Shown here one piece after another: positions 375-62,764 of a stretch of DNA of 64,000 nt (within the stretch, counting starts at the first letter, position 1; the number at the start of each line of letters is the position of its first letter). The notes beneath the pieces were generated by a model that was given only the letters and a program-made list of their open reading frames with translations, made no database searches and had not been told where the DNA came from. The position numbers and the translations under genes are program-made. Origin of the DNA: Octopus sinensis (Eukaryota); NCBI RefSeq assembly GCF_006345805.1, contig NC_043018.1, positions 15,562,001 through 15,626,000 on the forward strand, read 5' to 3'.

Positions 375-779
375 ATTCTAACAAAAGAACTGGTTTTAGA
401 GGAAGGCAAACCACCAAAACCTATTCAAATCAAATGCAACGTCCCTCCCAGTTTATTTTGCACCAAAGCAGAGAGAGATGAAGGTTCTTGTAATGTCCAG
501 GTGAAAGGTACTGTGGATGGGGTGCGAATGAAGAAATGTCCAAATGGTCTGAGTATTATACAATCAGTTTTTCTGCAGACAGGCAAGGAATCAAAAATAA
601 TGGAAAATGTCTGTGGTATTCCACTCAATTCAAAGAATTGGCAAACTGTTCAAGAAATATTCATCAAGTCTTCTATAGATACACTCATCGATAAAACACA
701 AGAAGAAAGTATCATAATCTCAATTGCAGTTCACCTTGATCGCTTCACCAGGAGGTTGGTTAATGCAGGAAGAGTGAAA
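375..779 (+). CDS. Exon 1 (module 1), pre-VWD beta domain
   Basis: gcag|ATT...AAA|gtaagt; 405 nt, phase 0-0; ILTKELVLEEGKPP...AGRVK; homologous to exons 17 and 34. Confidence 0.88.
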
Positions 780-1900: not shown

Positions 1901-3382
1901 CACACACACACACACAGATTTAATGTATTGAGGTATATTCTTGTTACATTTCAGGTGAAAGTTGTTGACATGGACAAAAATGTTTTGTGTAAATCTATAA
2001 ATGACCCTCATATGAGAACATTTGATAGGCAGTGAGTAAAATAAAAATTTTCTGCAATTAATATCTATCTATCTATATGCATACATTTGTATGCATTTAT
2101 ATATGTACATGTATGTATATACATATAGATACACACACTCACACAAATGTATATATATATTTCAAAATCTCATTATATGTTTTTTTTCTTTCAATTTTTA
2201 GAAATTACAATAACTTTTTTGAAGGTGAATTCATCATGTATCGACACAAGACACAACCTTTTGAGGTAAGGACTTTGATGCACAAATATATCTTCTGTGC
2301 GTGTGTGTGTGTGTTTGCTTGCGCATGAGGAAGTGACTTTCTTTTTGACATGTAAAGGTGAATCTCAACTATGTTTCAGTCATATCATTTTAATCATTTT
2401 AAAAAAATATTTCTGCATAAGACCTTTGCTGTTTGTTCAGGACAACAAGGTTATCCACTTTTATTGCAATTTCCAGATTATCTCAATACCATCATCAGGT
2501 TATGAACTTGTATTTGTTTCTTTATGTTTTTATTTATTGTGGTTGACTTATTTATGCAAACTCTGCTGCCAAAATTTGACCAGTAAAATTCCATATCATC
2601 AATCACATATTTTGTCCATCAGTGTTGCATGTCATAGGTGATGGTCATCTCCATCACATCACAACTAGTATCGGTAGGAGCAATGCTTGGATGGAAGTTT
2701 TAATCCACTGTCCAGTTTAACACCACTTCTTGGTGCTAAACACCACTTCTTGTTAGGTATTAAACACTTCTTGTTAGGTATCTGTTAGGTGTTCTTTAGT
2801 GGTGTCCACTCTGCTGTGAGCACTTGGGCCAAATCCTTACACTGAGACTCCCTTCATCCTCTGTTTCATGTACACAACATGACCCTATCTTTCCCCGGCC
2901 ATGCAGCAGAATAAACAACAACATAAGCACCACATACCAAACCTGCAGAGCTGCCTACAGTGGAGCCATCAAGACCAACCTTTTCTCTTTTCACAGCAAA
3001 TAAACTTAAGCACTCCTTATATAAAAAGAAAACAAAAATTTTCAAATCTCTGCACCAAACCCCCACCAAACAAGATGTAATATATGTCTAACACATTTCG
3101 TTTTTTTTTATTCTTATACAATGTAAGAATAACAGTGACGACAGTGAACAAACTGAAATTTCGAAGTCATTGTCAAACTTTTTCATCAAAAAGTTAGTAA
3201 ATGTTCTCTACTAAAAACAAAAGTACTGAGTAGTCCTTTAGTTGAATGTTAAATCGTTGCAATAACTTGATAAAAGAACTAGCATTAATACAATATATAA
3301 TGTTATTATCGTCATCATCATCATCATTTGATACTGCAAATGGAGCTTGACACAGCCCTGCAGCTTGCTGGATCTTGTCAAA

Positions 3383-3448: not shown

Positions 3449-5245
3449 CATGCTGTAAGTTACGCAGTAATGTAAACATTAACAATATCATATTGTTAAT
3501 GCTTACACTTGTGGCTGCAGTATTTTGTCTATGGCGGCTAAGTTCAATTCAGTCAAGTGATGACTTTGGAGGCTGAAACTTATATTGATATATCATGATA
3601 ATACATGTACATCTAAAACATTAAAAAAATATCTTTTTCTCTCTGTCATTCTAGGTCCGCAGTTTTTACCGTTCTTGTAATGGGTTTGCTTCTTGTAACT
3701 GTGCAGTTGCGGTGCGCAGTGGAGATGATGTAATTGTCTTTGATCGATGCGGTTCATCAATGGTAAAGCCCAAGGACAAAATTCCAATGACAGTTAAAAT
3801 TCATCTCAATGATGTCTTGACCCCTGGCACAAAAGTTATCAGCTTCAACGGTGGCAAGAAGTATGAAGTACGTGGGTTTTCATCTCCCTTCTTTTTCACT
3901 CTTAATTATTTGAGGTACATTTAGTGTACTGCTTACATATATTCCCCCGGTATTGTGGACTGGTTTTAGCCCTTTCTTATGTCTTTGTGAAATATTTCAA
4001 TTAAAGCTAATTAGTGAGGTGAATGAAGTATTGGACTGCCTGCTTTATGTTTGTGAAGTTTGTTTTGAAACCTTGTGGTTTCAGGTTCAATCCACTGTAT
4101 AGTGTTTTGGGGCAAGTGTATTCTACCATAGCCTCAAGTACACCGACCGACCGTGGTTGAGACAATGGAATTTACCATGCTACGCCAGACTTCACGGTCC
4201 ATCATGGCATTACGGAGGTCCTGTTGCTGGATGCCTGTATCCCTGGAGATTACATCAGGGTAGGAGATGTGCGCCCTCTGGTATTGCGAATACACCAATG
4301 ACTCATCATCATCATCATCATTTAGCGTCTGCTTTCCATGCTAGCATGGGTTGGACGGTTCAACTGGGGTATGGGAAGCCAGAAGGCTGCACCAGGCTCC
4401 AGTCTGATCTGGCAGTGTTTCTACGGCTGGATGCCCGTCCTAACGCCAACCACTCCGTGAGTGTAGTGGGTGCTTTTTACGTGCCACCGGCACTGTGAAA
4501 ACTGGTTGGCAGAAACTGTGAAATCCCATTGCATTGTGTGTGTGTGTGTGTGTGTGTTCTGTTGAAATATATTGTTAGGAAACGCAATCGGTGATGATCT
4601 GGCAGTTCAATAATATCAGCAAACCCAAGAAAGAAGATTAATAAATCACATCTTCTTACCAACAGTCTGCATCTCAGATACCAACAAGCTTAACTTTTTA
4701 ATAGTCCAGTCCATCTAAGCTGTATGTGTAACAGGGACTACACTCCCCCCTCTCTCTCTCTCTCTCTCTTTCTCTTCACATACACTTTTGTATGCTATTT
4801 TTTGTTGTATTTTTAAGGTCCATCTTCCAACTGGGATGGTTGTCAACATCCGACAAAGCTCAAGTCGTTTAGGCAGTTTCCTTAATCTGCAGATAAAACC
4901 ATCAGCCGTTGACTTCAACAATACTGAAGGTAAAAGTCTAACTTTTATACAATTTCTAATTCTTCTCATTATTATTATTATCATTATTATTTAATCAATT
5001 AATTAATTAATTAATTAATTAAGGTGGTGAGCAGACAGAACCATTAGCGTGCCAGGTTAAATGCTTTGCGGAATTTTGTCTGCCACTACGTTCTGAGTTC
5101 AAATTTTGCCACGGTCAACTTTGCCCTTCACCCTTTCAGAGTTGATAAATTAAGTATCAGTGAAATGCTAGGAGTCGATGTAATTGAGTCATCCTCTCAC
5201 CCAAAATGGCTGCCCTTGTGGCAAAATTTGTAACCATTATTATTA

Positions 5246-5288: not shown

Positions 5289-7944
5289 CATTATTATTGT
5301 TATTGTTATTAATGTTATTATAACTTAATTAATCAAGGTGGAAAGCTGGCAGAATCATTAGCATGTGGGACAGAATGCTTAGTGGTATTTCACCTGTTGC
5401 GACATTCTAAGCTCAAATTCCGCTGAGGTCAACTTTGCCTTTCATCCTTTTGGGGGTCAATAAATTAAGTATCAGTGAAACACTGGGGTCGATATAATCG
5501 ACGTCTGTCCTTCTTTGTCCTCTCTGTGTTTAGCCCCTTGTGCGTAGTAAAGAAATAGGTATTTCATCTGTTTTCACATTCTGAGTTCAAATTCCATTAA
5601 CGTCAACTTTGCCTTTCATCTTTTTGGGACTAATAAATTAAGTACCAGTTGCGTACTGGGGTCGATATAATCGACTTAATTCATTTGTCTGTCCTTCTTT
5701 GTCCTCTCTGTGTTTAGCCCCTTGTGCGTAGTAAAGAAATAGGTATTTCATCTGTCTTCACATTCTGAGTTCAAATTCCATTAATGTCGACTTTGCCTTT
5801 CATCTTTTTGGGGCTGATAAATTAAGTACCAGTTGTGTACTGGGGTCAATCTAATCAACTGCCCCCCTTCCTCCAAAACTTCAAATTTTGTGCCTAGAGT
5901 AAAAAAGTCTATTTAACCTTTCAAGTTTGATTCCTGCTGAGATTAACTTTGCCTTTCATATGCTCAGGTTTGGTAAAATGATCCCCATCAAGTTATGGTG
6001 GAGATTAACTCAACTCAATGTTACCTCTTCTCCTCCAAATTTTGTCTTTATGCTTACATCTAAAATTACTATAAAATATTTTTGTTTTTCCTTTGTTAAT
6101 CTGACAGGGTAAAAATATCACAAAGAAATGTCTTTGGTTTGATTTTTTTCAGGTTTGTGTGGAACATATGATGGAAACAAGAAGAATGACTTTTTAATGC
6201 CTAATGGCACCTTATATACTGTAATCAAGAAAAGCAAACCAGATCCATTTTCTCTGAGCTGGAGGTAAGATGTTTTGTCATTTAAACATTTTTTTTCCCT
6301 TGAAAGAAAGGCACACAACATGCAACTCTTTTCAGGGCTTTTGTGACTGATGAAGAAGAAAAAAGTGGGCTGCACAGAAACAGTGACCAAGGGACCAAGA
6401 CGTTTGGTGCTATACTATGCTTGAGAAGACCAGTCAAGCCAAGTGAGATTGTAGTCATGGCTGATGCCAGTGTTACATAACTGGCACCTGTGCCGGTGGC
6501 GCATACAAAACACCCACTGCGCTCTTACAGTAGTTGGCATTAGGAAGGGCATCCAGCTGTAGAAACCATGTCAGATCAGATTGGAACTTGGTGCAGTTCC
6601 CCAGCTTACCAGTTTCCAGTCAGGCCGTCCAACCCATGCCAGCATGGAAAATGGACGTTAAATGATGATGATGATGATGATGATGACTTGCAAGAGAATG
6701 GCCTCTGTTAAAGGCACCCAAGTATCCAGTAGTGTCATTAACATGATGTTAATGCAAACATTCCTGTCTGTTCTCTCATCTATGAATAATTCCCTCACTT
6801 CTTCCAGAAAATGGTTTGGCCGCAACCATTCCGTCACTTGTTAAGCCATTAAAAAACAAAACAAACAAAAGACAATCAAAATCAATCAAAAACAATAGAA
6901 CAACAAATGGTTTAATGTCTCTTCAACTTGCTTCAGTCATTTGACTGTGACCATGCTGGAGCACCGCCTTTAGTCAAGCAAATCGACCCCATGACTTATT
7001 CTTTGTAAGCCTAGTACTTATTCTATCGGTATCTTTTGCCAAACCGTTAAGTTACGGGGACGTAAACACACCAGCATCGGTTGTCAAGCGATGATGGGGG
7101 GACAAACACAGATACACAAACATACACACACGTGCACACACACACACACACACACATATATACCTATATACGACGGGCTTCTTTCAGTTTCCATCTACCA
7201 AATCCACTCACAAGGCTTTGGTCGGCCCGAGGCTATAGTAGAAGACACTTGCCCAAGGTGCCACGCAGTGGGACTGAACCCGGAACCATGTGGTTCGTAA
7301 GCAAGCTACTTACCAAGCAGCCACTCATTTTTTAAATTTTTTCTTTTCTCCAGAGTTGAAGAGAAAGATTCTCTTTACGATGGATATTGTCCAACTGCAA
7401 ATTCTAAAGAATATGGTCAACGGTACTGCCAGTGTGTAGAAAACAAACCAGAAGTGTGTGGTCCCAACTTTGATGTCATAAACTGCAACGCACCAGTAGC
7501 AGTTCAGAAAGGAAAGAAACGGAAGAAATTCTTGGGTTGGTACCACAAGCATTACTGTCATTGTCCTCTTCATCACCGTCATCATTACCACCACCATCTG
7601 CACTATCATCATCATTAACGCCACCACCACCACCATCATCATTAACACCACCACCATCATCATTACTATCGTCATTATCATCACCATCACCATCATCATT
7701 ACTACAATCATCATTGTCATTATTATTTTTATGTTTACCTTTTCCCTGCTGGTATGAGTTGGATGAGATGTATTAAGTCAAAGTTCTGAGGCCACGTGCC
7801 AATCCAGTTGCCAATCTTTTATTTCCGAATGAAGCATTTCATTAAAAGGAAGACTTTCTATACAACACAAAATGGTCCCTTAATTTTCACTATCTTCATT
7901 AATCTACACCCACAATGAAATCGGTTGACTTTTGCCTGGCTCTC

Positions 7945-50100: not shown

Positions 50101-50555
50101 CCTTTTCTTCTTATTCTCCTCCTCCTCCTTCTTCTTTTCTTCTTCAAAATATGTACTAAACAAAGTACTTGCGACTGGTATACTCCACAAAGACCCAAGA
50201 ATGCTGCACCACAACAGCAGGAGGGCTACAAGTAAAATGGGGGAAACCAGTCAACAGATATAAATTCGAAGCAGGTTTGACCAGTTAACTTTCTCTCTCA
50301 CTTCTTTTTCAGATCAATATTGAAGACAACGATTCATTAGCATTGTGTCGTTCTATTAACGATCCTCACATGACAACATTTGATGGAAGGTAAGACATTT
50401 CCTGATATTTCAAAAAATAGGTAATTTTTAAACAAACAGAAATCTCTGAAGATCGCTGGGTCCCAATTCCTGAATATGCACATGAAACCATACTGGGTTC
50501 TGTTTAAATAATTACATCTGTTCTTAGACACTTTTATACTGAAATATATATCTGT

Positions 50556-50601
<46 letters not shown>

Positions 50602-52289: not shown

Positions 52290-52326
<37 letters not shown>

Positions 52327-52870
52327 CATGATAGTAATAAATAAGTCATACAAGCAGTGCTATTTGTTTCCAGTTTTCCATGGAAACATATCTAGTTATG
52401 GGGAAATATTACCTTATTTGGAAATAGCTGCAAGTTGGTAAAAGGAAGAGCCTCTGGCTGTAGGAAATCTGCCCTAATGACCTTCATCTGATCCATTTCA
52501 GCCAAGAAAAGAGGATGTCAAAATATTGATACTGATGAAATGATGATGATATGTGTATATATGTATATATATTATTTTGCAGATACATTCATTCTACCGT
52601 AATTGCAATGGACGTGCTTCTTGTAACTGTGCTGTAGCTATTAAATCCGATGATGATGTCATTGTGTTTGACCGCTGCGGGGCAAGCGCTGGAGCAGTTG
52701 CTAAGAAATCAGAAATTCTGAGAAAGATTTACTTAAATGGAGAACTGAACCCAGGAACTAAAATCCTCCAGTTTGGAGAAGGAAGAAAATATCAGGTACG
52801 GTTGATTACTAACAGGTTGTCTTCTGTCTTGTCTTTTTAAAGTAACTCCATCTTTATGCATGTATCAGAA

Positions 52871-52921
<51 letters not shown>

Positions 52922-55900: not shown

Positions 55901-55976
55901 ATATGTTTATGTTATATATTTTGGTTGTTTTGTGGAACACATTTCTACTGTCTATGAAGAAGTTGGAACCAAATAA

Positions 55977-56059
<83 letters not shown>

Positions 56060-59000
56060 AGTGTACATTGATTGCTACTTTCATTTCCAATTGTCTTAAT
56101 TATATCAATTTTCTTACATTAATAGGTTTGTGTGGCACCTTTGATCATAACACGAAGAATGATCTCTTAATGTCTGATGGACAGACATTAACAACCACTA
56201 AATCTCAACCAAATAAGTTCTCACTAAGCTGGAAGTAAGAGAAATATTTTTAATATTATGTATGCTTAAACCCATGTCAGCCAACATTGAACAGATTTAT
56301 AGTCAATCGTAGCTCCTATTATTGACCAGGAAGAAATGCCATAAAGATACTTTGTCCAACTTGCTTAACGCCTGAAAATCTTGTAGCTGCTTCTTCCTTT
56401 GTATGCAACTCATTGCTCATTTTTAAGGTACTGCTATGAGAAGATATTTGCTACTTAATGGCAATATTCCAGGGCACTGAAGGCACATGGCTCAGTGGTT
56501 AGACTATTGGGCTCACAATAGTGAGGTGGTGAGCTCAATTCTTGGACAAGGCTGTGTGTTGCGTTCTTGAACAACACACTTTATTCTACATTGCTCCAGT
56601 TCACTCAGCTGTAGAAATGAGTTGAGATGTCACTGGTGCCAAGCTGTATCAATCTTTGCCTTCCCCTTGGATAACATTGGTGGCATAGAGAAGGGAGGCG
56701 GCTATGCTTGGGCAACTGCTGGTCTTCCATAAACAACCTTGCCTGGATCTGTGTTTCAGAGAGGAACTTTCTAGGTGCAATCCCACGGTCATTCATGATC
56801 GAAGAGGGTCTTTACCCTTTTATTTATGACAGCAATAAAATAAACCTTAATGTTTTCTTCATAATAAACAAAAAGAATCTCATCTCATCTAGGTTGTCCC
56901 ATAGGATGCCCCTCATAGGGGTTTCGGTTTTGCATACTATTGGAGTCACAGGGTGCTGCTCCATTTGGTCCCACACTTTCCATCTAACTAAGAATATTAG
57001 GGTCTCATCCATTGTCTTGTATTCAAGATCCTCTGCATGACATCCTGCTAGTTCAAAGCCAGGAATCTGGTCTGTTAGGTCCTGCCGATAACTAAATCCA
57101 CACCCTGCTGCCATTGCTTCGATTTATTGTCATTAAGGTTTTGTCTGTCTCCTACCCTTCAACCTGTCTGGCCTGGTAAGACCTGCCTGAAGATTTCTCT
57201 CCTTCCAGCAGAGCACTCCAAGTCAATGGAGCACACAGGCACTTCACCACAACAAGGTACTTGTTGAATTGGCTGTTGACTACGCAGTAGTTCTTCCACC
57301 CTTTGACGGGTCTTAGTTTTCATCCCACTGGGTGCCCAACAATCACTCTCCTCACCAAGCAAGGTTGCCAGTTTAGTCACTGATGACCCGACCATGAGAT
57401 AGGTTGTACTGTGTTACATGTTACCAGTAGTGCTCAAGAGCAACCTGACATTATACAAAAAATAAACAAATTATACTTATTTATATATATATATTGGTGG
57501 CTGCCCCCTCGTTATCGAGTATGGCCATTGCACGAAGCTTAATTAATGTTGTTATCGTGCAATGCCTGTGCAAGAAGATTTGTTTTTTTAAAGTGAGGAA
57601 AGGCTGTGCACTGAGTCAATCCCACTCACTGAGGAACAGCAGCCATAATCTGAAAAGAAGAACAAGTCAACATCATCGGTAACCACAGAGCCGCAGGTTT
57701 TATGTCGGAGTTATCCCTGTTACCTGAGTTACCTTCTACTAGAAGGATGCCCTAACAAAGGCTAGGAGTCCTTCACTCCCAATGGCTTAATCGCGCGATT
57801 GGGTATTCAGTCCGATTATTTCTATGTCCCCGTGCATGATACAGCCTTAAGACATTTATTGGATGGCCGTTGACTCTCAAGAGTTCCTCCGCCCTTTGAC
57901 GGGTCTTGTTTTTCATCCCGCAGGGTGACCAATAAACACCCTCCTCACCAAGCAAGCTTGGTGGGTTTGCCAGTTTAGTCGCCGACGACCCGACCATGCA
58001 ACGAACTGGATTGGAAAGATCTTCACTCTTAAAATGTTCACTTGTGCTGATCCTTATTCATTTCATCCATGAATTCCAAACAATCAGATATTTTACTTTG
58101 CCACTTTCCTTAATCTCCTCCTTACTCATACGACCTTACTCATACAAGTTGTGGTGCACCTGAGCACTGTATACAATAATTTCATTATTAACCTTCTACT
58201 GTCAGCAAATACAAGTTTTCCATTTGTGGCTCACACTGATGGAATTATTGTTCTTTTATTCATTACCTATTATATTTGGTACCCAGCACCACCTTCAACT
58301 CATTTATGCTCCATCCAATCTATCACCCAAAATCCCAAAATCTATGCCCATTTCCTCCATTTGTAAATCCTTGTTTTTGTTAACAATCACTAAATAAGAA
58401 ATATTTTATTTTTAACAGAGTCTATGAGAAGGATTCTTTATATGATGGCTTCTGTGGAGAAACAAGTCAGAAAGATTCAGACAAAGAGATCTATTGTTCT
58501 TGTGGTCAAAAGATGCCTGCGATGTGTGGCCGTGGGTTTGATCTGATGTCCTGTGATGCTATTAATGAAAGGCTGAATGGCTCAAAAGTAGAAATTAAAA
58601 ATGGTAGAGGAAAAGGTAAATCAAATTTGTCTCTAATTTCACATTTCATCTTTTTCCTGCTCGTATTATCCCCACCAATCCTTCATCATTAATAATCACC
58701 GTTACTGAATAAAAAATGCTAAAGGTATGCAATTATTTAATATGTTTTTATGAACTTGTTTTGTTTTTGGATTTTTCACTGGTGGGCGTGGGGTGTGTGT
58801 GGGGGGGTTTCTGGAGGAAGAGTGGAGTGTTCGTGGTTTTTCCAATTCTCGAAGGTTAGTGAGATTGATGCTGTTGATATTTATCTCAAAGCATTGTAGG
58901 TCAACACCAGTGGGAAAGACAGGGTGAGGGGAGGAGAGGAGAAGAGCAGAAACAAATGAATCAGATGATGAGCTGGCGAATGAATCAAGCGGCGAGCTGG

Positions 59001-61464
59001 TTGAATCGTTAACAGGTTGGGCAAAATGCTTAGCGGTATTTCGTCTGACTTTACGTTCTGCACTGAAATTCCGCTGAGGTCGACTTTGCCTTTCATCCTT
59101 TCGGGGTTGATTAAATAAGTACCAGTTACGTACTGGGGTCGATATAATCGACTTAATCTGTTTGTCTGTCCTTGTTTGTCCCCTCTGTGTTTAGCCCCTC
59201 GTGGGCAATAAAGAAATAAGAAATGAATCAGGAATGCTCAGGTGTAGGGGTCACAAGTGTGGACAGCTGTGAAGAGAAGATGCTAGCAAAGTAGGGGTAG
59301 AAAAGGCATAGAGAGGACACAGAGTACCTGTGGGCCAGAATCTGGTTACCTGTGAATGACTTTATGTCAATCTATCGGATGGTTGTTTTCTGGATGCAGT
59401 CTACAATGTTTGTGTGTGTAGCACTAAGCAGTAGAATTGTTCCAGGCATAGAAATAAGACTCCATTGTGGAACACACCCGAGTTTTGTACTGTACCAATA
59501 TTTTATTGAGTTAAATTACATCATTATCTCTGTTTACAGCAAAAGATATTACTGAAATGCTACTTAAAGAGGCTGCTGTCACTGGGAAATGTGTTTCAGA
59601 AGATCAAAGAGAAATATTTGAAGTCAACCATAACTATACTAGTCCTGTAAGTAAAATAATATCTTGCTTATTCACCACCACTACATCATATTTCCCTCCT
59701 TTTTCTGTGTTCCTTTCTTAGGTCTGTATATATGTTTATATGTCTGTACTTATGTGTGGTGCGTGGCTTAGTGGATAGAGAATCAGGCTCACACTCATGA
59801 GGTAGTGAGTTCAATTCCTGCACTGGGCTCTTTGTTGTGTTCTTGAGCAAGACTCTTTATTTCATATTGCTCCAATTCACCCAGCTGTAGCAATGAGTTA
59901 TGATGTCACTGGTGCCAAGCTATATCAACCTTTACCTTTCTCTTGGATAACACTGTTGGCGTGGAGAGGGGAGACCGGTATGCATGGGCGACTACTGGTC
60001 TTCCATAAACAACATTGCCCGGACTTGTGCCTTGGAGGGGAACTTTCTAGGTTCAATCCCAAGCTCATTCATGACTGAAGGGGGTCTATACCAGCATGGA
60101 AAGTGGATGTTAAACGACGATGATGGATGATGGTTTATAGGTTTATATATGTGTGTGTGTGTTGGCATATAATGATGATGATGATGATCATCATCATCGT
60201 TTAACATCCGTTCTCCATGCTAGCATGGGTTGGACGGTTTGACCGGGGATCTGGGAAGCCAGTAGGCTGCACCAGGCTCCAGTCTTATCTGGAAATGTTT
60301 CTACAGCTGGATGCCCTTCCTAATGCCAACCACTCCATGAGTGTAGTGGGTGCTTTTTACATGCCACCTGCACAGATGCCAGGCGAGGCTGGCATCGGCC
60401 ACGGTCAGATTGGTGCATCTTACGTGCCACCGGCACGGAAGCCAGCAGAGGCGGCACTGGCTTCGGCCACGATTCGGATGGTGCTTTTTACGTGCCACCG
60501 ACATGGAAGCCAGTACGGAAGCTGTGTATATATAGTTGTGTATGTATGTAGGTATGTGTCTACTTACCTACCTATTAACCTCTCTCTCTCTCTCTCTCAT
60601 TCTACTCTATCACTTCTCTCTCTTTCTACTTTATCTCCTTCCACTCCCAACATGCAACTTCCTCCTCCTTCTACTCTAGCCCCTCCAGTTTCTTTCTCCT
60701 CCTTCACCAATTTCACCATCTCTCTCTCTCTCCATGTCAGCATTAACAGTGCAGTGACATTTATTTGTGCCCTCCATAAAATTAAACATCCCACTCAGTG
60801 GTCCAATGTATAAATTCCATTTGGAATAAAGAACCCTTCTTGAAAACATGAAAGCAAAGCATCAGAAATACTGCTTCAACACATCTCCTCTAATCTCATT
60901 CTCTTAGCCCCTCACTGTTAATCTCACTCTCTTAGCCCCTCACTGTTAATCCCATTCTCTTAACCCCTCACTGTTAATCCCATTCTCTTAACACCTCACT
61001 GTTAATCCCATTCTCTTAACCTCTCACTGTTAATCCCACTCTCTTAACCTCTCACTGTTAATCTCAGTCTCTTAACACCTAATGCTAATCCCACTCTCTT
61101 AGCCCCTCACTGTTAATCCCACTCTCTTAACTCCTAGTCCTACACTGCTTTATTTTTCACAGAGTTTTGAACTATTTCTTTTGGTTTCTTAATAATATTT
61201 TTATCATTTACTTCTTTCTTTTGTAGGATGTTAAATGGCCAACAGCAAGTGGAATCACAGAAGAAAATGCCCACGAGTATTGCATGGACTTCATTCGGCA
61301 GAGCAAGTCAGGCCAATATTGCGAGAAAGTTAAGGATGTGAGCTTTTCAAATGTAATAGCCTCATGCTTTGAAGATATCAAAGTAAGTTTAACTGATGTG
61401 ACTCTCCTTGTTGTCGTTACAGTTGCCATCATCATCTTTGTCATTATTTTTATCATCATTATTG

Positions 61465-61498
<34 letters not shown>

Positions 61499-62195: not shown

Positions 62196-62235
<40 letters not shown>

Positions 62236-62764
62236 GATGGGCTTCTTTCAGTTTCCGTCTGCCAAATCCATTCACAAGGCTTTGGTCAGCCTAAGGCTAT
62301 AGTAGAAGACACTTGCCCAAGGTGCCATGCAGTGGGACTGAACCCAGAACCATGTGGTTGGTAAGCAAGCTACTTACCACACAGCCACTCTGGTGCCTAA
62401 ATATTTATTTCTTTTATCTAAGTGTTTTAAAAATGTATTATTTCAAATGAAACAAGTTTTACACATTAATGCATAATATTGTAATTAAGGACTTAGTATA
62501 TCTAATTAAACACCAATATACTAAATCACTCTCTTCCCTGTTTCCATGGTATTTCATTGTGATCTTTGTTATTGTTATTGTAGCTCACCGATGACAAGTC
62601 TTGGGCTTCATCTGCTTTAGAGAACTTAAAAGAACAATGTTTGACTTCGATTGAAAACAATGTTGACTTGTGGATAACAGTGAATGGATCAAGAGGACCA
62701 CCAATAAGTATTATTGAGTCCATGTGTCCCAATGACTGTAGTCAAAATGGAAATTGTAGTAAAG
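375..62764 (+). CDS. Partial multi-exon gene (43 exons in window, both ends outside): giant VWD/EGF (VWDE-like) protein of tandem VWD-EGF-IPT-LamG modules
   Basis: Manually spliced GT-AG exons with compatible phases throughout except exon 10. Motifs CKSINDPHMxTFD, GEFVLYRH, ASCNCAVAVRSGDDV, GLCGxFDG, FSxSWR, WPTxSGIT and CPxxCxxxGxC..GxCxC recur across the modules and match the VWDE family. Orthology to VWDE is not established. Confidence 0.9.
1297..1703 (+). mobile_element. tRNA-derived SINE family A (Octopus-type)
   Basis: A/B-box head tggctgtgtggtaag...ggttcagtccc, internal (TA)/(TG) tract, (gtaaaaga) tail; many copies in window. Confidence 0.85.
1955..2031 (+). CDS. Exon 2 (module 1), VWD start with NDPH
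   Basis: 77 nt, phase 0-2; VKVVDMDKNVLCKSINDPHMRTFDR. Confidence 0.92.
2202..2265 (+). CDS. Exon 3 (module 1), VWD
   Basis: 64 nt, phase 2-0; NYNNFFEGEFIMYRHKTQPFE. Confidence 0.92.
3655..3867 (+). CDS. Exon 4 (module 1), VWD
   Basis: 213 nt; VRSFYRSCNGFASCNCAVAVRSGDDV...GGKKYE. Confidence 0.92.
4303..4495 (-). mobile_element. Retroposon family C, 3' end with (GAT)n tail
   Basis: ggttggcgttagga.gggcatccagc...ccatgctagcatgga...(gat)n; other copies at 6390-6685, 11905-12093, 12871-13108, 14095-14560, 35600-36160, 39840-40045, 48192-48445 and 60170-60515. Confidence 0.75.
4818..4929 (+). CDS. Exon 5 (module 1), VWD
   Basis: 112 nt, phase 0-1; VHLPTGMVV...SAVDFNNTE. Confidence 0.9.
5021..5910 (+). 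mobile_element. SINE-like family B, tandem multimer
   Basis: Repeated gagctggcagaa...ttctgagttcaaattcc...tttgcctttcatc...ggggtcgat units around (ATT)n. Confidence 0.75.
6153..6264 (+). CDS. Exon 6 (module 1), VWD end
   Basis: 112 nt, phase 1-2; GLCGTYDGNKKNDF...FSLSWR. Confidence 0.92.
6925..7326 (-). mobile_element. SINE family A
   Basis: Reverse-complement match to 1297-1703. Confidence 0.85.
7354..7535 (+). CDS. Exon 7 (module 1), Cys-rich linker with basic tail
   Basis: 182 nt, phase 2-1; VEEKDSLYDGYC...KGKKRKKFL; donor gttggt. Confidence 0.82.
7940..8135. repeat. (CT)n-rich low-complexity tract
   Basis: Direct reading. Confidence 0.9.
8640..9385. repeat. (TA)-rich ~189-bp tandem repeat with palindromic 73-bp units
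   Basis: Units at 8807-8879, 8997-9068 and 9186-9258 bounded by aattcataattaagggcaa inverted ends. Confidence 0.8.
9463..9569 (+). CDS. Exon 8 (module 1)
   Basis: 107 nt, phase 1-0; LDMTETLLK...FEYNRTYVAG; homologous to exons 24 and 41. Confidence 0.82.
10247..10390 (+). CDS. Exon 9 (module 1), helical Cys domain
   Basis: 144 nt; EFQSNLTEAESMKKC...FCSQDLM. Confidence 0.85.
10926..11121. mobile_element. hAT-type MITE
   Basis: TIRs cagtggttttcaa/ttgaaaagcactg with a perfect 8-bp target-site duplication tcttagag. Confidence 0.88.
11577..12232. mobile_element. piggyBac-like non-autonomous element with two nested SINEs
   Basis: ttaa|cccttt...aaaggg|ttac ends; related sequence at ~17340-18040. 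Confidence 0.5.
11628..11870 (-). mobile_element. tRNA-derived SINE family E
   Basis: Head and core like family D but a different 3' tail; second copy at ~46530-46780. Confidence 0.7.
12319..12504 (+). CDS. Exon 10 (module 1), EGF first half; contains an apparent 1-nt deletion
   Basis: LTGNVMWTLAA...WIVPE in the entry frame (stop at 12451-12453); GELPEFPSNITDALCLNDCSNQGTCKK in a shifted frame; 186 nt where 3n+1 is needed. Confidence 0.82.
13289..13473 (+). CDS. Exon 11 (module 1), EGF end plus IPT/TIG-like start
   Basis: 185 nt, phase 1-0; GICLCNQTFDGVDCS...ITGSGFIEGPNLTC. Confidence 0.9.
14854..15045 (+). CDS. Exon 12 (module 1), IPT/TIG-like end
   Basis: 192 nt; ...YISSEQIMCPVP...VSISND...YNPLCEDCINDKCTPR. 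Confidence 0.88.
15699..16467. repeat. 52-bp minisatellite, ~15 copies
   Basis: Unit tcaaaagtgtttcagatatcttgtatccaatactgccttaatcctttaatgt. Confidence 0.95.
16748..16862 (+). CDS. Exon 13 (module 1), small Cys domain
   Basis: 115 nt, phase 0-1; LDVCTIGGVCFPNGAINP...SSWS. Confidence 0.88.
18275..18910 (+). CDS. Exon 14 (module 1), LamG/pentraxin (ConA-like) domain
   Basis: 636 nt, phase 1-1; GNAVVLDGVNNFIDMG...CFSSLTQCTFGMTV...FSWSEKSGLYLYFD...LIIG. Confidence 0.9.
18921..19086. repeat. (CT)n(CTT)n tract
   Basis: Immediately after the exon 14 donor. Confidence 0.95.
20012..20238 (+). CDS. Exon 15 (module 2 start), Ig-like
   Basis: 227 nt, phase 1-0; LPFFKERP...FHCSF...YTATWYID...YGSK. Confidence 0.88.
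20417..20788 (-). mobile_element. Non-autonomous Helitron
   Basis: Minus strand: A|TC start, 3' hairpin cccgagcaacgccggg then CTAG|T. Confidence 0.8.
21227..21622 (+). mobile_element. SINE family A
   Basis: Near full-length match. Confidence 0.85.
21661..21753 (+). CDS. Exon 16 (module 2)
   Basis: 93 nt; IKCGVRACKSSNCSSIFGPERTSKPFTAEIT. Confidence 0.86.
22212..22600 (+). mobile_element. Mariner transposon remnant (5' TIR plus decayed HTH region)
   Basis: tatgaggtggtattgaaaagttcc end; translation MDRKLKQRANVEFCIKLQKS...CFKWHGCFKSGRASLKD with frameshifts/stops. Confidence 0.7.
22984..23397 (+). CDS. Exon 17 (module 2), pre-VWD domain
   Basis: 414 nt; IKESNVKVIEGD...IPQAVF...ATLDGLRD...GSVD. 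Confidence 0.9.
24356..24432 (+). CDS. Exon 18 (module 2), VWD start with NDPH
   Basis: 77 nt; LEIIDRDKSSICKSINDPHMTTFDN. Confidence 0.92.
25820..26040 (-). mobile_element. LINE (RTE-like) ORF 3'-end fragment
   Basis: CALCNRMCKSLAGLKSHR zinc-finger-like terminus. Confidence 0.5.
26679..26742 (+). CDS. Exon 19 (module 2), VWD
   Basis: 64 nt; RYDNFKHGEFVLYRHKRLPYA. Confidence 0.92.
26808..27212. mobile_element. SINE family A, two 5' halves in inverted orientation
   Basis: 26808-27072 (+) followed by 27080-27212 (-). Confidence 0.8.
27475..27681 (+). CDS. Exon 20 (module 2), VWD
   Basis: 207 nt; VHAFYRSCNGRASCNCAIAVRSGDDV...GGKKFK. Confidence 0.92.
28233..28675 (+). mobile_element. Non-autonomous Helitron
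   Basis: a|tctttctatatataaacggcag... cccgggcaacgccggg-ctatgctg-CTAG|t; 5' part matches the 20.4-kb copy. Confidence 0.8.
28968..29079 (+). CDS. Exon 21 (module 2), VWD
   Basis: 112 nt; VVLPIGTSV...YINVWVQASPIDYKNTE. Confidence 0.9.
29785..29893 (+). CDS. Exon 22 (module 2), VWD end
   Basis: 109 nt; GLCGNFDGIKDND...FSESWR. Confidence 0.92.
30911..31080 (+). CDS. Exon 23 (module 2), Cys-rich linker
   Basis: 170 nt; VSAKDTLYNGFC...FCDC...KNNKKGSK. Confidence 0.88.
31352..31736 (-). mobile_element. tRNA-derived SINE family F
   Basis: Minus-strand head ggaggcgcaatgtcccagtggttagggcagcgg...ggtttcgattccc with A/B boxes, ~385 bp, CpG-rich. Confidence 0.7.
32345..33330. mobile_element. SINE-like family B cluster (several minus copies, then a plus copy)
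   Basis: gatgaaaggcaaagtcgacc...gaatttgagctcagaa repeats. Confidence 0.7.
33489..33601 (+). CDS. Exon 24 (module 2)
   Basis: 113 nt; KDVTEVVME...KC...FEFNATFIPQ. Confidence 0.85.
33720..34140 (+). mobile_element. SINE-like family B dimer
   Basis: Two tandem ~180-bp units; other copies at ~41690-41897 (-), ~42160-42290 (-) and 58988-59222 (+). Confidence 0.75.
34232..34530 (-). mobile_element. RLE-type non-LTR retrotransposon fragment (R4/Dong-like)
   Basis: CRM..K...AHIVSAC..L....Y..RH zinc knuckle followed by KILWDFDCQTDKVLEHQRPDIV endonuclease motif. Confidence 0.8.
34893..35051 (+). CDS. Exon 25 (module 2)
   Basis: 159 nt; ELKWPTESGITE...SCVTDIQ. Confidence 0.9.
36405..36594 (+). CDS. 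Exon 26 (module 2), EGF first half
   Basis: 190 nt, phase 0-1; IMDNFMWV...ICPSECNDQGKCVE. Confidence 0.9.
37150..38265. repeat. 31-bp minisatellite, ~35 copies
   Basis: Unit acacagcataaacatgggtggcacaacatag. Confidence 0.95.
38452..38639 (+). CDS. Exon 27 (module 2), EGF end plus IPT-like
   Basis: 188 nt; GICVCDGQFEGVDCS...VFGENFLDSSSLTC. Confidence 0.9.
38991..39155 (+). mobile_element. SINE family A, 5' half
   Basis: Head region running into (TA)n(GA)n. Confidence 0.8.
39556..39738 (+). CDS. Exon 28 (module 2), IPT-like end
   Basis: 183 nt; TDSQVQGLYITSEQVQCP...ISNNG...YDSTCQIC. Confidence 0.88.
41936..42050 (+). CDS. Exon 29 (module 2), small Cys domain
   Basis: 115 nt; SNVCKVDGNC...CIPSNSSNAWS. 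Confidence 0.87.
42488..42795 (+). CDS. Exon 30 (module 2), LamG N-half
   Basis: 308 nt, phase 1-0; ...LRIENNLL...CLQDPSLCPYGLSVSF...QGVK. Confidence 0.88.
43826..44218 (-). mobile_element. SINE family A
   Basis: Full-length reverse match. Confidence 0.85.
44343..44667 (+). CDS. Exon 31 (module 2), LamG C-half
   Basis: 325 nt, phase 0-1; IFYSDYKLYV...FSWNEQFGLSIYVNG...IFIG. Confidence 0.9.
45071..45589 (-). mobile_element. Retrozyme/Penelope-like partial tandem element (~351-nt period, ~167-bp direct repeats)
   Basis: 45071-45237 is repeated at 45422-45589; the spacer holds a 16-bp inverted repeat enclosing a hammerhead motif. Confidence 0.65.
45285..45330 (-). ncRNA. Type I hammerhead-like motif (U4C variant)
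   Basis: Minus strand: cacaca-CCGAUGA-c-gggu/caau/accc-u-GAAA-cucgaGUC-cgugugu; palindromic stem III acucgagu. Confidence 0.6.
45634..45866 (+). CDS. Exon 32 (module 3 start), Ig-like
   Basis: 233 nt; APELETKPEI...LCQF...YILLWKLD...FGSK. Confidence 0.88.
45951..46203 (+). mobile_element. SINE family A, partial
   Basis: Middle and 3' portion, interrupting a family C element. Confidence 0.75.
47544..48521. mobile_element. hAT-type MITE containing nested insertions
   Basis: Ends cagtggttctcaac / gttgagatcctctg; TSD not preserved. Confidence 0.55.
47749..48126. mobile_element. Tc1/mariner-type MITE
   Basis: ta|cactaccgtcagaaattaattagcac ... gtgctaattaatttctgacgcaagtg|ta; TA TSD. Confidence 0.85.
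48782..48874 (+). CDS. Exon 33 (module 3)
   Basis: 93 nt (same size as exon 16); LICQVSTCLSNMCDVTGSKWIDSIPIVPQIY. Confidence 0.86.
49154..49558 (+). CDS. Exon 34 (module 3), pre-VWD domain
   Basis: 405 nt; LKTKTLTIREG...VSQAVF...ASLDALID...GKVD. Confidence 0.9.
49568..50145. repeat. (TTC/TCC)n polypyrimidine tract
   Basis: ~580 nt of nearly pure C/T triplets just after the exon 34 donor. Confidence 0.95.
50313..50389 (+). CDS. Exon 35 (module 3), VWD start with NDPH
   Basis: 77 nt; INIEDNDSLALCRSINDPHMTTFDG. Confidence 0.92.
50670..51068 (+). mobile_element. Non-autonomous Helitron
   Basis: a|tctttatatataaaag... cccgagcaacgccggg-cgatactg-CTAG|t; 3' end matches the 20.4-kb copy. Confidence 0.8.
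51215..51278 (+). CDS. Exon 36 (module 3), VWD
   Basis: 64 nt; HYNNFFEGEFVLYKHKTLPYE. Confidence 0.92.
51408..51895 (-). mobile_element. Tc1 transposon remnant (DDE C-terminus, internally deleted)
   Basis: Minus strand: IFQDENVP...E*HEE...WPPQSPDLNTIEHLW...SIPRRIQAVITAKDGPTP; TIR-like ta|caggggttagacaaaataatggaaac. Confidence 0.85.
52583..52795 (+). CDS. Exon 37 (module 3), VWD
   Basis: 213 nt; IHSFYRNCNGRASCNCAVAIKSDDDV...GRKYQ. Confidence 0.92.
53105..53209 (-). ncRNA. Type I hammerhead ribozyme (intact core), inverted partner
   Basis: Reverse complement of the left arm: CUGAUGA, stem II, GAAAC-auau-GUC with palindromic stem III acauaugu. Confidence 0.8.
53307..53411 (+). ncRNA. Type I hammerhead ribozyme (intact core)
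   Basis: Stem I aagttccttgtttttc/gagaataaaggaattt; CUGAUGA 53323-53329; stem II gaaggcggcata/tatgcagccttc; GAAAC-agat-GUC, predicted cut after 53395. Confidence 0.8.
54102..54216 (+). CDS. Exon 38 (module 3), VWD
   Basis: 115 nt; VILPTGG...FINVWFKASALDFQNTE. Confidence 0.9.
54321..54620 (+). mobile_element. Diverged second copy of the 45-kb hammerhead element family
   Basis: 54471-54553 aligns to the reverse complement of the 45-kb direct repeat (gtgtcta.agccagct...ggggcta..aa.ctacagta.ca...ggttagccat); an enclosing stem flanks the hammerhead in the same way. Confidence 0.6.
54365..54407 (+). ncRNA. Type I hammerhead-like motif (C3U variant)
   Basis: cgcccg-UUGACGA-ggga/caacaa/uccc-GAAA-cuaGUU-ugagcg; palindromic stem III aacuaguu. 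Confidence 0.6.
55082..55500 (+). mobile_element. SINE family A
   Basis: Full-length match; further decayed copies at ~51907-52292 and ~55738-55900. Confidence 0.85.
56126..56234 (+). CDS. Exon 39 (module 3), VWD end
   Basis: 109 nt; GLCGTFDHNTKND...FSLSWK. Confidence 0.92.
56482..56822 (+). mobile_element. tRNA-derived SINE family D
   Basis: ggcacatggctcagtggttag head...cagttcactcagctgtagaaatgag...tttacccttt tail; other copies at ~23900-24185, 36748-37025, 54722-55035 and 59757-60090. Confidence 0.8.
56880..58010 (-). mobile_element. Interspersed repeat fragments, possibly LINE 5' regions; two diverged copies (~57270-57420 and ~57865-58005)
   Basis: Shared ccctttgacgggtctt.gttttcatccc...ctcctcaccaagcaag...gacccgaccatg. 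Confidence 0.4.
58419..58615 (+). CDS. Exon 40 (module 3), Cys-rich linker
   Basis: 197 nt; VYEKDSLYDGFC...YCSC...KNGRGK. Confidence 0.87.
59540..59646 (+). CDS. Exon 41 (module 3)
   Basis: 107 nt; KDITEMLLK...KC...FEVNHNYTSP. Confidence 0.86.
60890..61135. repeat. 28-bp minisatellite, ~9 copies
   Basis: Unit ccctcactgttaatcccactctcttaac. Confidence 0.9.
61227..61382 (+). CDS. Exon 42 (module 3)
   Basis: 156 nt; DVKWPTASGITEE...SCFEDIK. Confidence 0.9.
62005..62392 (-). mobile_element. SINE family A
   Basis: Full-length reverse match. Confidence 0.85.
62584..62764 (+). CDS. Exon 43 (module 3), EGF first half
   Basis: 181 nt, phase 0-1; LTDDKSWA...MCPNDCSQNGNCSK. Confidence 0.9.

What the first reader, a model, noticed from the sequence alone, without database searches (positions are those of the whole stretch)
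375..62764. Giant protein built from tandem ~1,020-aa VWD-EGF-IPT-LamG super-modules
Seen: a 16/17-exon cassette recurs about 2.7 times with matching phases and often identical exon sizes (77/77/77, 64/64/64, 93/93, 115/115, 405/414/405). The complete module 2 (exons 15-31) is 3,054 nt, or 1,018 codons. Each LamG exon splices in phase 1 into the next module with no stop, signal peptide or intergenic gap, so this reads as one polyprotein rather than tandem genes. Known: vertebrate VWDE has a single VWD followed by EGF repeats. Inference: this is a lineage-specific extracellular matrix, mucus or adhesive protein formed by old whole-module duplication. I do not recognise this VWDE+LamG repeating architecture as a characterised protein.
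Basis: partly seen in the sequence, partly recalled or inferred. Interest (0 to 1): 0.72.

Follow-up and report, generated by a model that had tools for sequence, protein, structure and literature searches.

The report
Giant octopus VWDE-like tandem-module surface protein
The window holds 43 exons (three ~1,020-residue repeat modules) from the middle of one very large octopus gene. Spliced RNA reads straight through the module borders. The whole protein is predicted to have about 14 modules (~13,000 residues) and is likely membrane-anchored. Relatives occur across molluscs, but none has been studied.

Summary
The window has 43 AG/GT exons forming a 16/17-exon cassette repeated 2.6 times. The spliced frame is open for 2,578 codons, apart from one 1-nt deficit in the genome. 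Spliced RNA contigs from 5 runs (4 studies), up to 20,834 nt long, cross both module borders through GT..AG introns, so this is one transcript and not tandem genes.

The window is only the middle of the gene. It holds modules 9-11 of 14 colinear modules spread over about 413 kb. The flanks inferred from DNA and homology are:
- a discoidin-like exon at the 5' side;
- PAN exons in modules 1-2;
- LamG-like exons only in modules 6-13;
- a mucin-like repeat exon;
- an in-phase transmembrane exon.

The same tandem architecture occurs in Argonauta, gastropods, bivalves and nemerteans, and several of those proteins end in a transmembrane tail. Module trees show that the duplications predate the cephalopod-gastropod-bivalve split. 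"Lineage-specific" is therefore wrong. VWD, EGF and LamG-like domains are supported; IPT is not. The Pfam "VWDE-like Ig" domain maps to exons o+p. My searches found no paper that describes this family.

The parts
375..779 (+). M1 (module 9) exon a, 405 nt, phase 0>0; Ig-like beta-sandwich domain
   Evidence: AG/GT and open frame; paralogues E 8e-12 and 2e-9.
1955..2031 (+). M1 exon b, 77 nt; start of VWD, carries the NDPH motif
   Evidence: motif count.
2202..2265 (+). M1 exon c, 64 nt (VWD)
3655..3867 (+). M1 exon d, 213 nt (VWD core)
   Evidence: 14 copies on the contig.
4818..4929 (+). M1 exon e, 112 nt (VWD)
6153..6264 (+). M1 exon f, 112 nt (end of VWD)
7354..7535 (+). M1 exon g, 182 nt (Cys-rich)
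   Evidence: RNA contig piece 7352-7534 in 4 of 4 runs.
9463..9569 (+). M1 exon h, 107 nt
   Evidence: Of the open 107-nt AG..GT/GC candidates (5, 2 with a GT donor), the one that is paralogous and in the right frame; fills the 107-nt gap in the contig record.
10247..10390 (+). M1 exon i, 144 nt
   Evidence: RNA piece listed for X10 and X5.
12319..12504 (+). M1 exon j, 186 nt in the genome, 187 nt in RNA; frame changes in the window sequence
   Evidence: RNA piece with 1 gap in 4 of 4 runs; frames.
13289..13473 (+). M1 exon k, 185 nt (EGF end plus beta-sandwich)
   Evidence: RNA piece in 4 of 4 runs.
14854..15045 (+). M1 exon l, 192 nt (beta-sandwich; weak TIG hit)
   Evidence: RNA piece in 4 of 4 runs; TIG E 0.02, below cut-off.
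16748..16862 (+). M1 exon m, 115 nt (Cys-rich)
   Evidence: Fills the 115-nt record gap.
18275..18910 (+). M1 exon n, 636 nt; LamG-like/ConA-like jelly roll
   Evidence: RNA piece in 4 of 4 runs; AF2 pLDDT 94.4; Foldseek jelly-roll matches.
20012..20238 (+). M1 exon o, 227 nt (first half of the VWDE-like Ig domain)
   Evidence: RNA piece in 4 of 4 runs; Ig_VWDE maps to o+p in homologues.
21661..21753 (+). M1 exon p, 93 nt
   Evidence: Fills the 93-nt record gap; GTAAGT donor.
22984..23397 (+). M2 (module 10) exon a, 414 nt
   Evidence: RNA piece in 4 of 4 runs; same contig as the M1 exons in 3 of them.
24356..24432 (+). M2 exon b, 77 nt
   Evidence: The b-j sum of 1,201 nt fits the X1 record gap.
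26679..26742 (+). M2 exon c, 64 nt
27475..27681 (+). M2 exon d, 207 nt
28968..29079 (+). M2 exon e, 112 nt
29785..29893 (+). M2 exon f, 109 nt
30911..31080 (+). M2 exon g, 170 nt
33489..33601 (+). M2 exon h, 113 nt
   Evidence: chosen over the 107-nt option by the record length.
34893..35051 (+). M2 exon i, 159 nt
36405..36594 (+). M2 exon j, 190 nt (start of EGF)
38452..38639 (+). M2 exon k, 188 nt
   Evidence: RNA piece and joint 38639>39556 GT..AG in 4 of 4 runs.
39556..39738 (+). M2 exon l, 183 nt
   Evidence: Joints in 4 of 4 runs.
41936..42050 (+). M2 exon m, 115 nt
   Evidence: Joints in 4 of 4 runs.
42488..42795 (+). M2 exon n1, 308 nt (LamG-like, first half)
   Evidence: RNA pieces.
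44343..44667 (+). M2 exon n2, 325 nt (LamG-like, second half)
   Evidence: Joint 44666>45633 GT..AG in 4 of 4 runs; Laminin_G_3 E 0.016, below cut-off.
45634..45866 (+). M2 exon o, 233 nt
   Evidence: Pieces listed for X2 and X5; joint in 4 of 4 runs.
48782..48874 (+). M2 exon p, 93 nt
   Evidence: Joint 48874>49154 GT..AG in 4 of 4 runs.
49154..49558 (+). M3 (module 11) exon a, 405 nt
   Evidence: RNA piece in 4 of 4 runs; AF2 beta-sandwich, pLDDT 84.5.
50313..50389 (+). M3 exon b, 77 nt
   Evidence: Joint 50387>51213 in 4 of 4 runs.
51215..51278 (+). M3 exon c, 64 nt
   Evidence: Same joint.
52583..52795 (+). M3 exon d, 213 nt
   Evidence: Joint 52792>54099 in 4 of 4 runs.
54102..54216 (+). 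M3 exon e, 115 nt
   Evidence: Both joints in 4 of 4 runs.
56126..56234 (+). M3 exon f, 109 nt
   Evidence: Joint 54214>56124 in 4 of 4 runs.
58419..58615 (+). M3 exon g, 197 nt (donor uncertain; a 185-nt option exists)
   Evidence: No RNA laid here.
59540..59646 (+). M3 exon h, 107 nt
61227..61382 (+). M3 exon i, 156 nt
62584..62764 (+). M3 exon j, 181 nt; last exon in the window. Exons k-p lie 326-8,107 nt beyond the window end

Best explanation
The window holds 43 exons, three ~1,020-residue repeat modules, from the middle of one large gene whose spliced RNA runs through both module borders. The complete protein is predicted to have about 14 such modules (~13,000 residues) and is likely a single-pass membrane protein of the cell surface.

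Module layout. Each module reads: VWDE-like Ig domain (exons o, p); a second Ig-like sandwich (a); a VWD domain (b-f); a Cys-rich stretch (g-j); one tenascin/teneurin-type EGF (j/k); a beta-rich stretch (k, l); a Cys-rich knot (m); and, in modules 6-13 only, a LamG-like/ConA-like jelly roll (n).

Shown:
- the exon structure;
- the open frame;
- splicing across the borders in RNA contigs up to 20.8 kb;
- colinear orthology to one Argonauta protein;
- the same tandem order in other molluscs and nemerteans;
- the age of the duplications.

Inferred from DNA and homologues only:
- that all 14 modules, the upstream discoidin-like and PAN exons, the Ser/Thr/Pro-rich repeat exon and the transmembrane exon belong to the same transcript.

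Proposed mechanism (inference). The protein would be a very long, heavily disulfide-bonded and glycosylated filament anchored in the apical membrane. Its lectin-like domains (discoidin, PAN, LamG-like) would bind glycans or matrix. Its VWD domains would allow lateral disulfide linkage, or Asp-Pro self-cleavage, since 12 of 14 carry a DPH motif. On this reading it organises or tethers an apical extracellular coat or adhesive layer.
For: Exon model:
- All 43 exons have AG/GT borders and conserved phases.
- The frame is open for 2,578 codons.

RNA:
- Contig pieces in colinear order, in 4 of 4 runs from 4 studies, join M1 exons to M2 exon a.
- Eight GT..AG joints, each in 4 of 4 runs from 3 studies, include 44666>45633 and 48874>49154, which is the M2>M3 border.
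- Single contigs reach 20,834 nt (X10), 15,494 nt (X2) and 15,447 nt (X5).
- M2's length of 3,060 nt fits the contig records.

Locus:
- The VWD-core exon occurs 14 times on the + strand over 360 kb.
- The exon walker finds 212 exons in 14 colinear modules with 37,788 coding nt and no in-frame stop except at the 1-nt deficit.
- Between modules 13 and 14 lies a Ser/Thr/Pro-rich exon of 9-residue repeats with AG/GT borders and phase 1>1.
- A hydrophobic exon lies 1.8 kb after the last module's exon m, with an acceptor in phase 1.
- PAN_1 hits on three exons between m and o of modules 1-2: E 3e-8, 1e-7, 4.5e-7, all above cut-off.
- A discoidin-like exon lies upstream: tblastn E 2e-4 (1.6e-6 in the looser search), Pfam E 2.8e-4, below cut-off.

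Homologues:
- M1 and M2 align end to end with consecutive parts of Argonauta P0001, at 54.6% over 1,031 and 50.8% over 1,020 residues.
- P0001 carries Pfam VWD (E 1.5e-35) and EGF_Tenascin (E 2e-16) at the positions of exons b-f and j/k.
- The tandem o-p-a-d-g-i-j-k-l-m(-n) order is present in 17 of the 31 proteins mapped.
- Twelve of 24 homologues inspected have a C-terminal hydrophobic segment followed by a tail (11 score Kyte-Doolittle 2.3 or more; P0162's 1.81 peak is marginal). This includes Aplysia P0160, which ends module-TM-tail.

LamG-like domain:
- The AF2 model has pLDDT 94.4.
- At least 500 PDB matches at E <= 0.001, all listed ones ConA-like jelly rolls.
- Laminin_G_3 hits lie at the n position in Haliotis (E 8e-18) and Lineus (E 2e-12).
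Against: - The runs are labelled only 'RNA?'. The contigs are short-read assemblies and cannot show transcript ends or isoforms. The longest covers about 7 of 14 modules.
- The 5' end and signal peptide were not found in the 20 kb upstream of the discoidin-like exon.
- Single exons of the window give no significant Pfam hit (0 of 22 above cut-off), so the domain names rest on orthologues and models.
- Module 3 lacks recognisable exons c, f and h, and its VWD motif is degenerate.
- The genome sequence has a frameshift in M1 exon j.
- Function and tissue are unknown. The octopus skin-mucus paper I searched for 'von Willebrand' names only other von Willebrand-type proteins (C- and A-domain), no VWD or VWDE-like protein (passages only; supplements not read).
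Confidence: 0.7

Rival explanations
1. The locus makes one or more giant secreted proteins rather than one membrane-anchored protein. For example, modules 1-13 would form a secreted gel or matrix protein, and module 14 plus the transmembrane exon would be a separate single-module receptor like those of Haliotis or Capitella.
For: - The RNA contigs of X10 and X5 end at the same place, about 150 nt past the LamG exon of module 13. X2's contig ends 89 nt short of it (bookkeeping).
- Module 14 groups with single-module membrane proteins and with the last Aplysia module.
- Single-module SP...TM relatives exist.
Against: - The donor after module 13's LamG exon is a consensus GGTAAGT.
- The next exon is in phase and begins with about 100-135 nt of unique sequence before a 27-nt tandem repeat. 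That is where a k-mer assembly would break.
- Aplysia P0160 has LamG modules, a spacer of about 280 residues, the last module and the TM in one model.
Confidence: 0.2
2. The array is a set of tandem, separately transcribed ~1,000-residue genes, and the long contigs are assembly chimeras or read-through.
For: - The tool itself warns that a contig across two genes does not prove a single transcript.
- Argonauta and Aplysia annotations split the array into two models each.
Against: - Module borders are ordinary GT..AG introns in phase, seen in 4 of 4 runs.
- There is no stop, start-like Met with signal peptide, or hydrophobic stretch at any border.
- Modules are only 33-41% identical, so shared 31-mers that could cause chimeras are unlikely.
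- The annotated models elsewhere each still span 3-6 modules.
Confidence: 0.05
3. The gene is decaying (a pseudogene or partly dead array) in this species.
For: - The frameshift in M1 exon j of the genome sequence.
- Module 3 has missing exons and a degenerate VWD start.
Against: - RNA contigs of 4 of 4 runs carry the missing base.
- All other exons found in the 14 modules are open.
- Cysteine pattern and phases are conserved.
- Spliced RNA is present in runs of 4 studies.
Confidence: 0.05

Closest known systems
Uncharacterised tandem-module proteins of other lophotrochozoans: Argonauta hians GAB1607640.1/GAB1607641.1, Aplysia LOC118477191 and LOC106014199, Biomphalaria A0A2C9L6R6, Elysia, Bulinus, Candidula, Pecten, Lineus
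   Same: - They have the same exon-type order o-p-a-VWD-g-i-j-k-l-m(-n) repeated in tandem.
- LamG-less modules come first and LamG modules later in Biomphalaria and Aplysia, as here.
- PAN lies between m and o in Pecten.
- The Aplysia model ends in a TM tail.
- M1-M3 are colinear with Argonauta P0001 at 51-61% identity.
   Different: - All are database models of 2,400-5,070 residues that begin or end inside modules, so none shows the full length.
- All carry automatic names only.
- The octopus locus has 14 modules and shows a three-module block duplication (8-9-10 against 11-12-13).
[quoted passage not shown]
   Same: - Pfam's 'VWDE-like immunoglobulin domain' (PF25776) lies at exons o+p in homologues.
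- The module has VWD and an EGF.
- PF26129 is precomputed on 16 of the 18 proteins listed (P0001 and 15 relatives).
- NCBI names oyster and scallop relatives 'VWDE-like'.
   Different: - VWDE is described as a secreted protein with one VWD and a variable run of EGF repeats. It has been studied only in deuterostomes (PMC7390686 and PMC9117669, passages read; size and layout otherwise recalled).
- Here there is one EGF per module, about 14 modules, and LamG-like, PAN and discoidin-like domains with a likely TM.
- I could not fetch a vertebrate VWDE sequence, so no direct alignment was made.
FCGBP, gel-forming mucins and zonadhesin (tandem VWD assemblies)
   Same: - Many VWD domains lie in one chain.
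- An Asp-Pro-His motif sits at the VWD start (12 of 14 modules), as in the self-cleaving GDPH of FCGBP and MUC2 (recalled).
- A mucin-like repeat is present, as is a membrane anchor as in zonadhesin (recalled).
- Mucin-2 and FCGBP appear as weak VWD-only hits (E 2e-11 and 8e-4).
   Different: - No C8 or TIL domain turned up in any of the 12 family proteins I scanned with Pfam.
- The unit is about 1,000 residues with Ig-like, EGF and LamG-like parts instead of VWD-C8-TIL.
Earlier scan note e1-8148565 (giant membrane-anchored EGF-VWD-LamG-C8 protein in another genome)
   Same: A giant, membrane-anchored animal protein with a repeated VWD/EGF/LamG-type unit and no described function.
   Different: - It has a different unit (~635 residues, with C8) and a beta-helix rod, and it comes from another genome.
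- I did not compare the sequences.

Membership tests
VWDE-like family (Pfam domain set) | VWD domain (PF00094) | tested here: met
   The evidence is indirect. Argonauta P0001 has VWD at E 1.5e-35, best stretch 1923-2082. That stretch aligns to M2 residues ~147-306, exons b-f. Single window exons gave no VWD hit (0 of 6 b-f-type exons tested).
VWDE-like family (Pfam domain set) | VWDE-like Ig domain (PF25776) before the VWD | tested here: inconclusive
   Above cut-off in Pecten (33.4 bits) and Candidula (32.6 bits), at the o+p position. Below cut-off in O. bimaculoides (19.6 bits). Absent in Argonauta P0001 at E <= 10. Window exons o and p gave no hit.
VWDE-like family (Pfam domain set) | PF26129 domain | not testable with these tools
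   It is listed as precomputed on P0001 and 15 of the 17 other hits, and on 6 of the 12 hits. The model is not in the local Pfam copy, so I have no name or position for it.
Vertebrate VWDE proper | Single VWD followed by a run of EGF repeats, secreted | tested here: not met
   There is one EGF hit per module and tandem modules. A likely TM exon lies downstream.
Gel-forming mucin / VWF D assembly | VWD followed by C8 and TIL | tested here: not met
   No PF08742 or PF01826 appeared in P0001, P0004, P0026, P0027, P0163, P0164, P0166, P0175 or P0162. Both are present in the weak Mucin-2 and FCGBP hits.
LamG / ConA-like lectin superfamily | Jelly-roll fold and family profile match for exon n | tested here: met
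   The AF2 model has pLDDT 94.4 and pTM 0.90. Foldseek gives at least 500 PDB matches at E <= 0.001, with top TM 0.6-0.69 to lectin-like jelly rolls at 12-17% identity. Laminin_G_3 hits lie at the n position in Haliotis and Lineus. The window exon itself scores only E 0.016. The match is at the level of fold and superfamily.
IPT/TIG domain | TIG profile match on exons k-l | tested here: inconclusive
   M1 exon l scores E 0.02, 15.3 bits against a 20.9 cut-off. There is no TIG hit on P0001 or P0163 at E <= 10. The domain is split over two exons and could not be folded.
Type I membrane protein | Signal peptide and one C-terminal TM helix | tested here: inconclusive
   The TM exon is in phase 1.8 kb after the last module and matches the layout of homologues. 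No RNA was laid there, and no signal-peptide exon was found.

The most novel reading that the evidence does not exclude
Molluscs and their relatives share an unstudied membrane-anchored protein built from about 14 VWDE-like super-modules (~13,000 residues, about 413 kb, at least 212 exons). It is more than 500 million years old. The individual modules have kept positional orthology between cephalopods, gastropods and bivalves. Its self-cleaving-type VWD domains and lectin-like domains would build or tether an apical extracellular coat.
Probability: 0.45. Interest if true: 0.65.

Novelty: new variant of a known kind. Interest (0 to 1): 0.55.

Why it matters
This would be one of the largest proteins of a cephalopod. 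It would be a conserved lophotrochozoan surface protein that genome annotations currently break into anonymous fragments.

The finding gives three things:
- a full exon map for three modules;
- a draft map of the whole locus;
- evidence that module identity is conserved across mollusc classes.

With these, orthologues can be annotated correctly. The map also gives targets for expression, knock-down and proteomic work on mucus, adhesion or apical matrix. Finally, it links vertebrate VWDE, studied only in limb and fin regeneration, to a much larger protostome family.

Tried and rejected
- Pfam on 22 single exons gave no hit above cut-off.
- The search for homologous proteins with the LamG exon, lengths 'longer', found nothing, but only proteins of 371-2,000 residues were searched.
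- No listed run is on record as RNA. I used the spliced contigs instead.
- The ESM Atlas search with an oyster relative gave only scores of 0.75-0.77, which is no lead.
- PDB sequence searches with the LamG and domain-a profiles and with P0001 found nothing meaningful.
- Domain a folds as a beta-sandwich (pLDDT 84.5) but has no PDB match at E <= 0.001. The best hits are pilus chaperones and p53 cores at TM < 0.5, so it is a generic Ig-like fold only.
- A search for a signal-peptide exon in the 20 kb upstream found none.
- Rfam found no family in the window.
- Earlier scan notes by place and by sequence returned nothing.
- Literature:
  - VWDE+mollusc gave 6 papers, listing only.
  - The broad searches were dominated by unrelated cephalopod and snail-mucus papers.
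  - Six accession names gave 0 papers.
  - PF26129/PF25776/Ig_VWDE/'VWDE-like' gave 1 shrimp hemocyte preprint, listing only.
  - Octopus + von Willebrand factor + proteom + mucus gave 18 papers. I searched one for 'von Willebrand'; its passages name C- and A-domain von Willebrand proteins but no VWD or VWDE-like protein.
  - Supplementary tables were not read and could hold such identifications.
- The own species' annotated protein did not appear in any protein search, so I cannot say how it is annotated.
Full report
**What the window is.** The window is G000 contig C22, bases 15,562,001-15,626,000, + strand, in a 2.72-Gb animal genome. It is AT-rich and full of short interspersed repeats. 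The best protein relatives are from octopods.

**Check of the observation.**
- Stop-free stretches of the + strand match each other exon by exon in three sets, at 28-55% identity and E 1e-8 to 1e-29.
- I fixed the exon borders with splice signals, phase and RNA. This gave 43 exons, all AG/GT, of 16 types (a-p). M1 has 16 exons (375-21753), M2 has 17 (22984-48874; the LamG exon is split) and M3 has 10 (49154-62764).
So is the 3,054-nt 'exons 15-31', which equals o and p of M1 plus a to n2 of M2.
- M2 is 3,060 nt, or 1,020 codons, with no stop. The whole spliced frame of the window is 2,578 codons with no stop and no hydrophobic segment.
- There is one flaw. Exon j of M1 changes frame in the genome sequence, while the RNA contigs carry one more base there in 4 of 4 runs.

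**One transcript.**
- No listed run is recorded as RNA. Even so, contigs of runs X1, X5, X9 and X10 (four studies) lie on the window as intron-less pieces in genomic order: 7352-7534, 10246-10389, 12318-12502, 13287-13473, 14854-15045, 18275-18909, 20017-20236, 22984-23397. The gaps in the records have exactly the sizes of the small exons (107, 115 and 93 nt).
- On 38320-58319, eight joints with GT..AG ends are each present in 4 of 4 runs (three studies). They include 44666>45633 (LamG exon to exon o) and 48874>49154 (exon p to exon a of M3).
- Single contigs are 20,834, 15,494 and 15,447 nt long.
- Modules are only 33-41% identical, so chimeric assembly between them is unlikely.
- The module borders are therefore ordinary in-phase introns of one mRNA.

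**The window is a fraction of the gene.**
- The VWD-core exon recurs 14 times on the + strand between 15,327,189 and 15,686,996.
- I fetched 15,282,001-15,746,000 and walked it with the exon peptides. This found 14 colinear modules, 212 exons and 37,788 coding nt. All are open except at the 1-nt deficit. The window holds modules 9, 10 and 11.
- Modules 1-5 and 14 lack the LamG exon. Phase is kept, because exon n enters and leaves in phase 1.
- Modules 1 and 2 instead carry PAN exons (Pfam E 3e-8 to 4.5e-7).
- Upstream, at about 15,302,434 and 15,315,313, lie discoidin-like exons. These are supported by tblastn to the Lingula relative and by a sub-threshold Pfam hit.
- Between module 13 and module 14 is an exon of about 550 nt made of some 17 nine-residue Ser/Thr/Pro-rich repeats. 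It has a good acceptor and donor and phase 1>1.
- By exon-sum bookkeeping, the long contigs of X10 and X5 end at one place about 150 nt past module 13's LamG exon. X2's contig stops 89 nt earlier. That is where this repeat begins and where a k-mer assembly would break. This is an inference.
- About 1.8 kb after the last module's exon m is an exon that enters in phase 1 and encodes a hydrophobic stretch of some 24 residues followed by a strong donor.
- No signal-peptide exon was found in the 20 kb I had upstream.

**Domains.**
- Single exons are too short for Pfam.
- M1 and M2 align end to end with consecutive parts of an Argonauta hians protein. P0001 residues 757-1776 match M1 at 54.6% and residues 1777-2787 match M2 at 50.8%. 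M3 continues at 60.6%.
- On that protein Pfam finds VWD (E 1.5e-35) at the place of exons b-f, and tenascin/teneurin-type EGF at the j/k junction.
- Pfam's 'VWDE-like immunoglobulin domain' falls on exons o+p in Pecten and Candidula.
- Exon n folds with pLDDT 94.4 into a jelly roll. It matches at least 500 PDB chains at E <= 0.001, with lectin-like ConA-type domains on top. Laminin_G_3 hits sit at the same place in Haliotis and Lineus.
- Exon a folds as a generic Ig-like sandwich with no specific match.
- Twelve of 14 VWD starts carry Asp-Pro-His.

**Relatives.**
- A full HMMER scan with the LamG exon gave 265 hits.
- Word-based searches with one Argonauta module gave large proteins in Biomphalaria (5,070 aa), Aplysia (4,956 and 4,490 aa on one contig), Elysia, Bulinus, Candidula, Pecten, Tegillarca, Lineus, Tubulanus, Lingula and Capitella.
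- All carry automatic names: 'uncharacterized', 'VWFD domain-containing', 'mucin-17' or 'VWDE-like'.
- HMMs of the octopus exons show the same order o-p-a-d-g-i-j-k-l-m(-n) in tandem in 17 of the 31 proteins mapped. LamG-less modules come first and LamG modules later in Biomphalaria and Aplysia.
- Several relatives start with a signal peptide and discoidin domain, and 12 of 24 inspected end in a TM helix and tail.

**Age of the duplications.**
- In a tree of 59 modules, octopus modules need 13 changes of label. Module 2 pairs with Elysia and Pecten modules, module 4 with gastropod modules, and module 14 with the last Aplysia module. That last pairing joins two long branches and needs caution.
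- Modules 8/11, 9/12 and 10/13 pair up, which points to a three-module block duplication before the Octopus-Argonauta split (FastTree, SH-like support).
- With IQ-TREE on 36 rows, forcing octopus modules together costs 110 log-likelihood units (AU p = 7e-5). I named the group after seeing the first tree, and I left out module 3 as a long branch.

**Mechanism (inference).** I read this as a very long, Cys-rich, N-glycosylated ectodomain anchored by one helix. The window part alone has 106 Cys and 32 sequons. Lectin-like domains would provide binding, and VWD domains would provide cross-linking or self-cleavage, so the protein would organise an apical coat or adhesive layer. Tissue and partners are unknown.

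**Literature.**
- VWDE has been studied only in deuterostomes, and 'not in depth in any species' (PMC7390686, passages). The planarian equinox paper contrasts VWDE with a TSP1-EGF family (PMC9117669, passages).
- Searches by accession names and Pfam ids gave 0 and 1 papers. Neither these nor the other searches turned up a description of the tandem-module family.
- Supplements were not read.

**Verdict.** It is wrong about lineage specificity and incomplete about size and anchoring.

Noticed in passing
window ~12,410-12,430 (inside M1 exon j, 12319-12504): The genome sequence is one base short compared with the RNA contigs of 4 of 4 runs, which shifts the frame. This is probably an assembly indel, but it could be a real allele.
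   Followed up: partly
window 37149-38268: A minisatellite of 31 nt x 36 copies (93% matches) lies in the j-k intron of M2. It gives long false Cys-rich frames on the - strand and blocked read laying.
   Followed up: partly
window 15695-16466; 49568-50145; 18951-19086: Other intronic repeats are present: 52 nt x 15 in the l-m intron of M1; (TTC)n of 578 nt directly after exon a of M3; and (TCT)n directly after the LamG exon of M1.
   Followed up: no
window 51410-51667, - strand: A fragment of a DDE_3 (Tc1/mariner-type) transposase (Pfam E 3e-6, just below cut-off) lies in the c-d intron of M3.
   Followed up: partly
G000:C22 about 15,672,401-15,672,950 (L015): An in-phase exon made of about 17 nine-residue Ser/Thr/Pro-rich repeats lies between modules 13 and 14. 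It is a likely mucin-type spacer, and the long RNA contigs appear to stop where it starts.
   Followed up: partly
G000:C22 15,535,585-15,677,819 (modules 8-13): Modules pair as 8/11, 9/12 and 10/13 in the tree. This suggests a duplication of a three-module block before the Octopus-Argonauta split.
   Followed up: partly
P0001 and P0151 (Argonauta hians, adjacent gene models): The two models share near-identical modules (tree branch lengths 0-0.014) and the same last 60 residues. The Argonauta array may be mis-assembled, or annotated twice.
   Followed up: no
table 3: Contigs of 'organism A' differ from the window at 0-3 letters per exon piece, while those of 'organism B' differ by up to 15 in 635. 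B's M2 record is also 3 nt longer. B is probably a close relative or another population.
   Followed up: no
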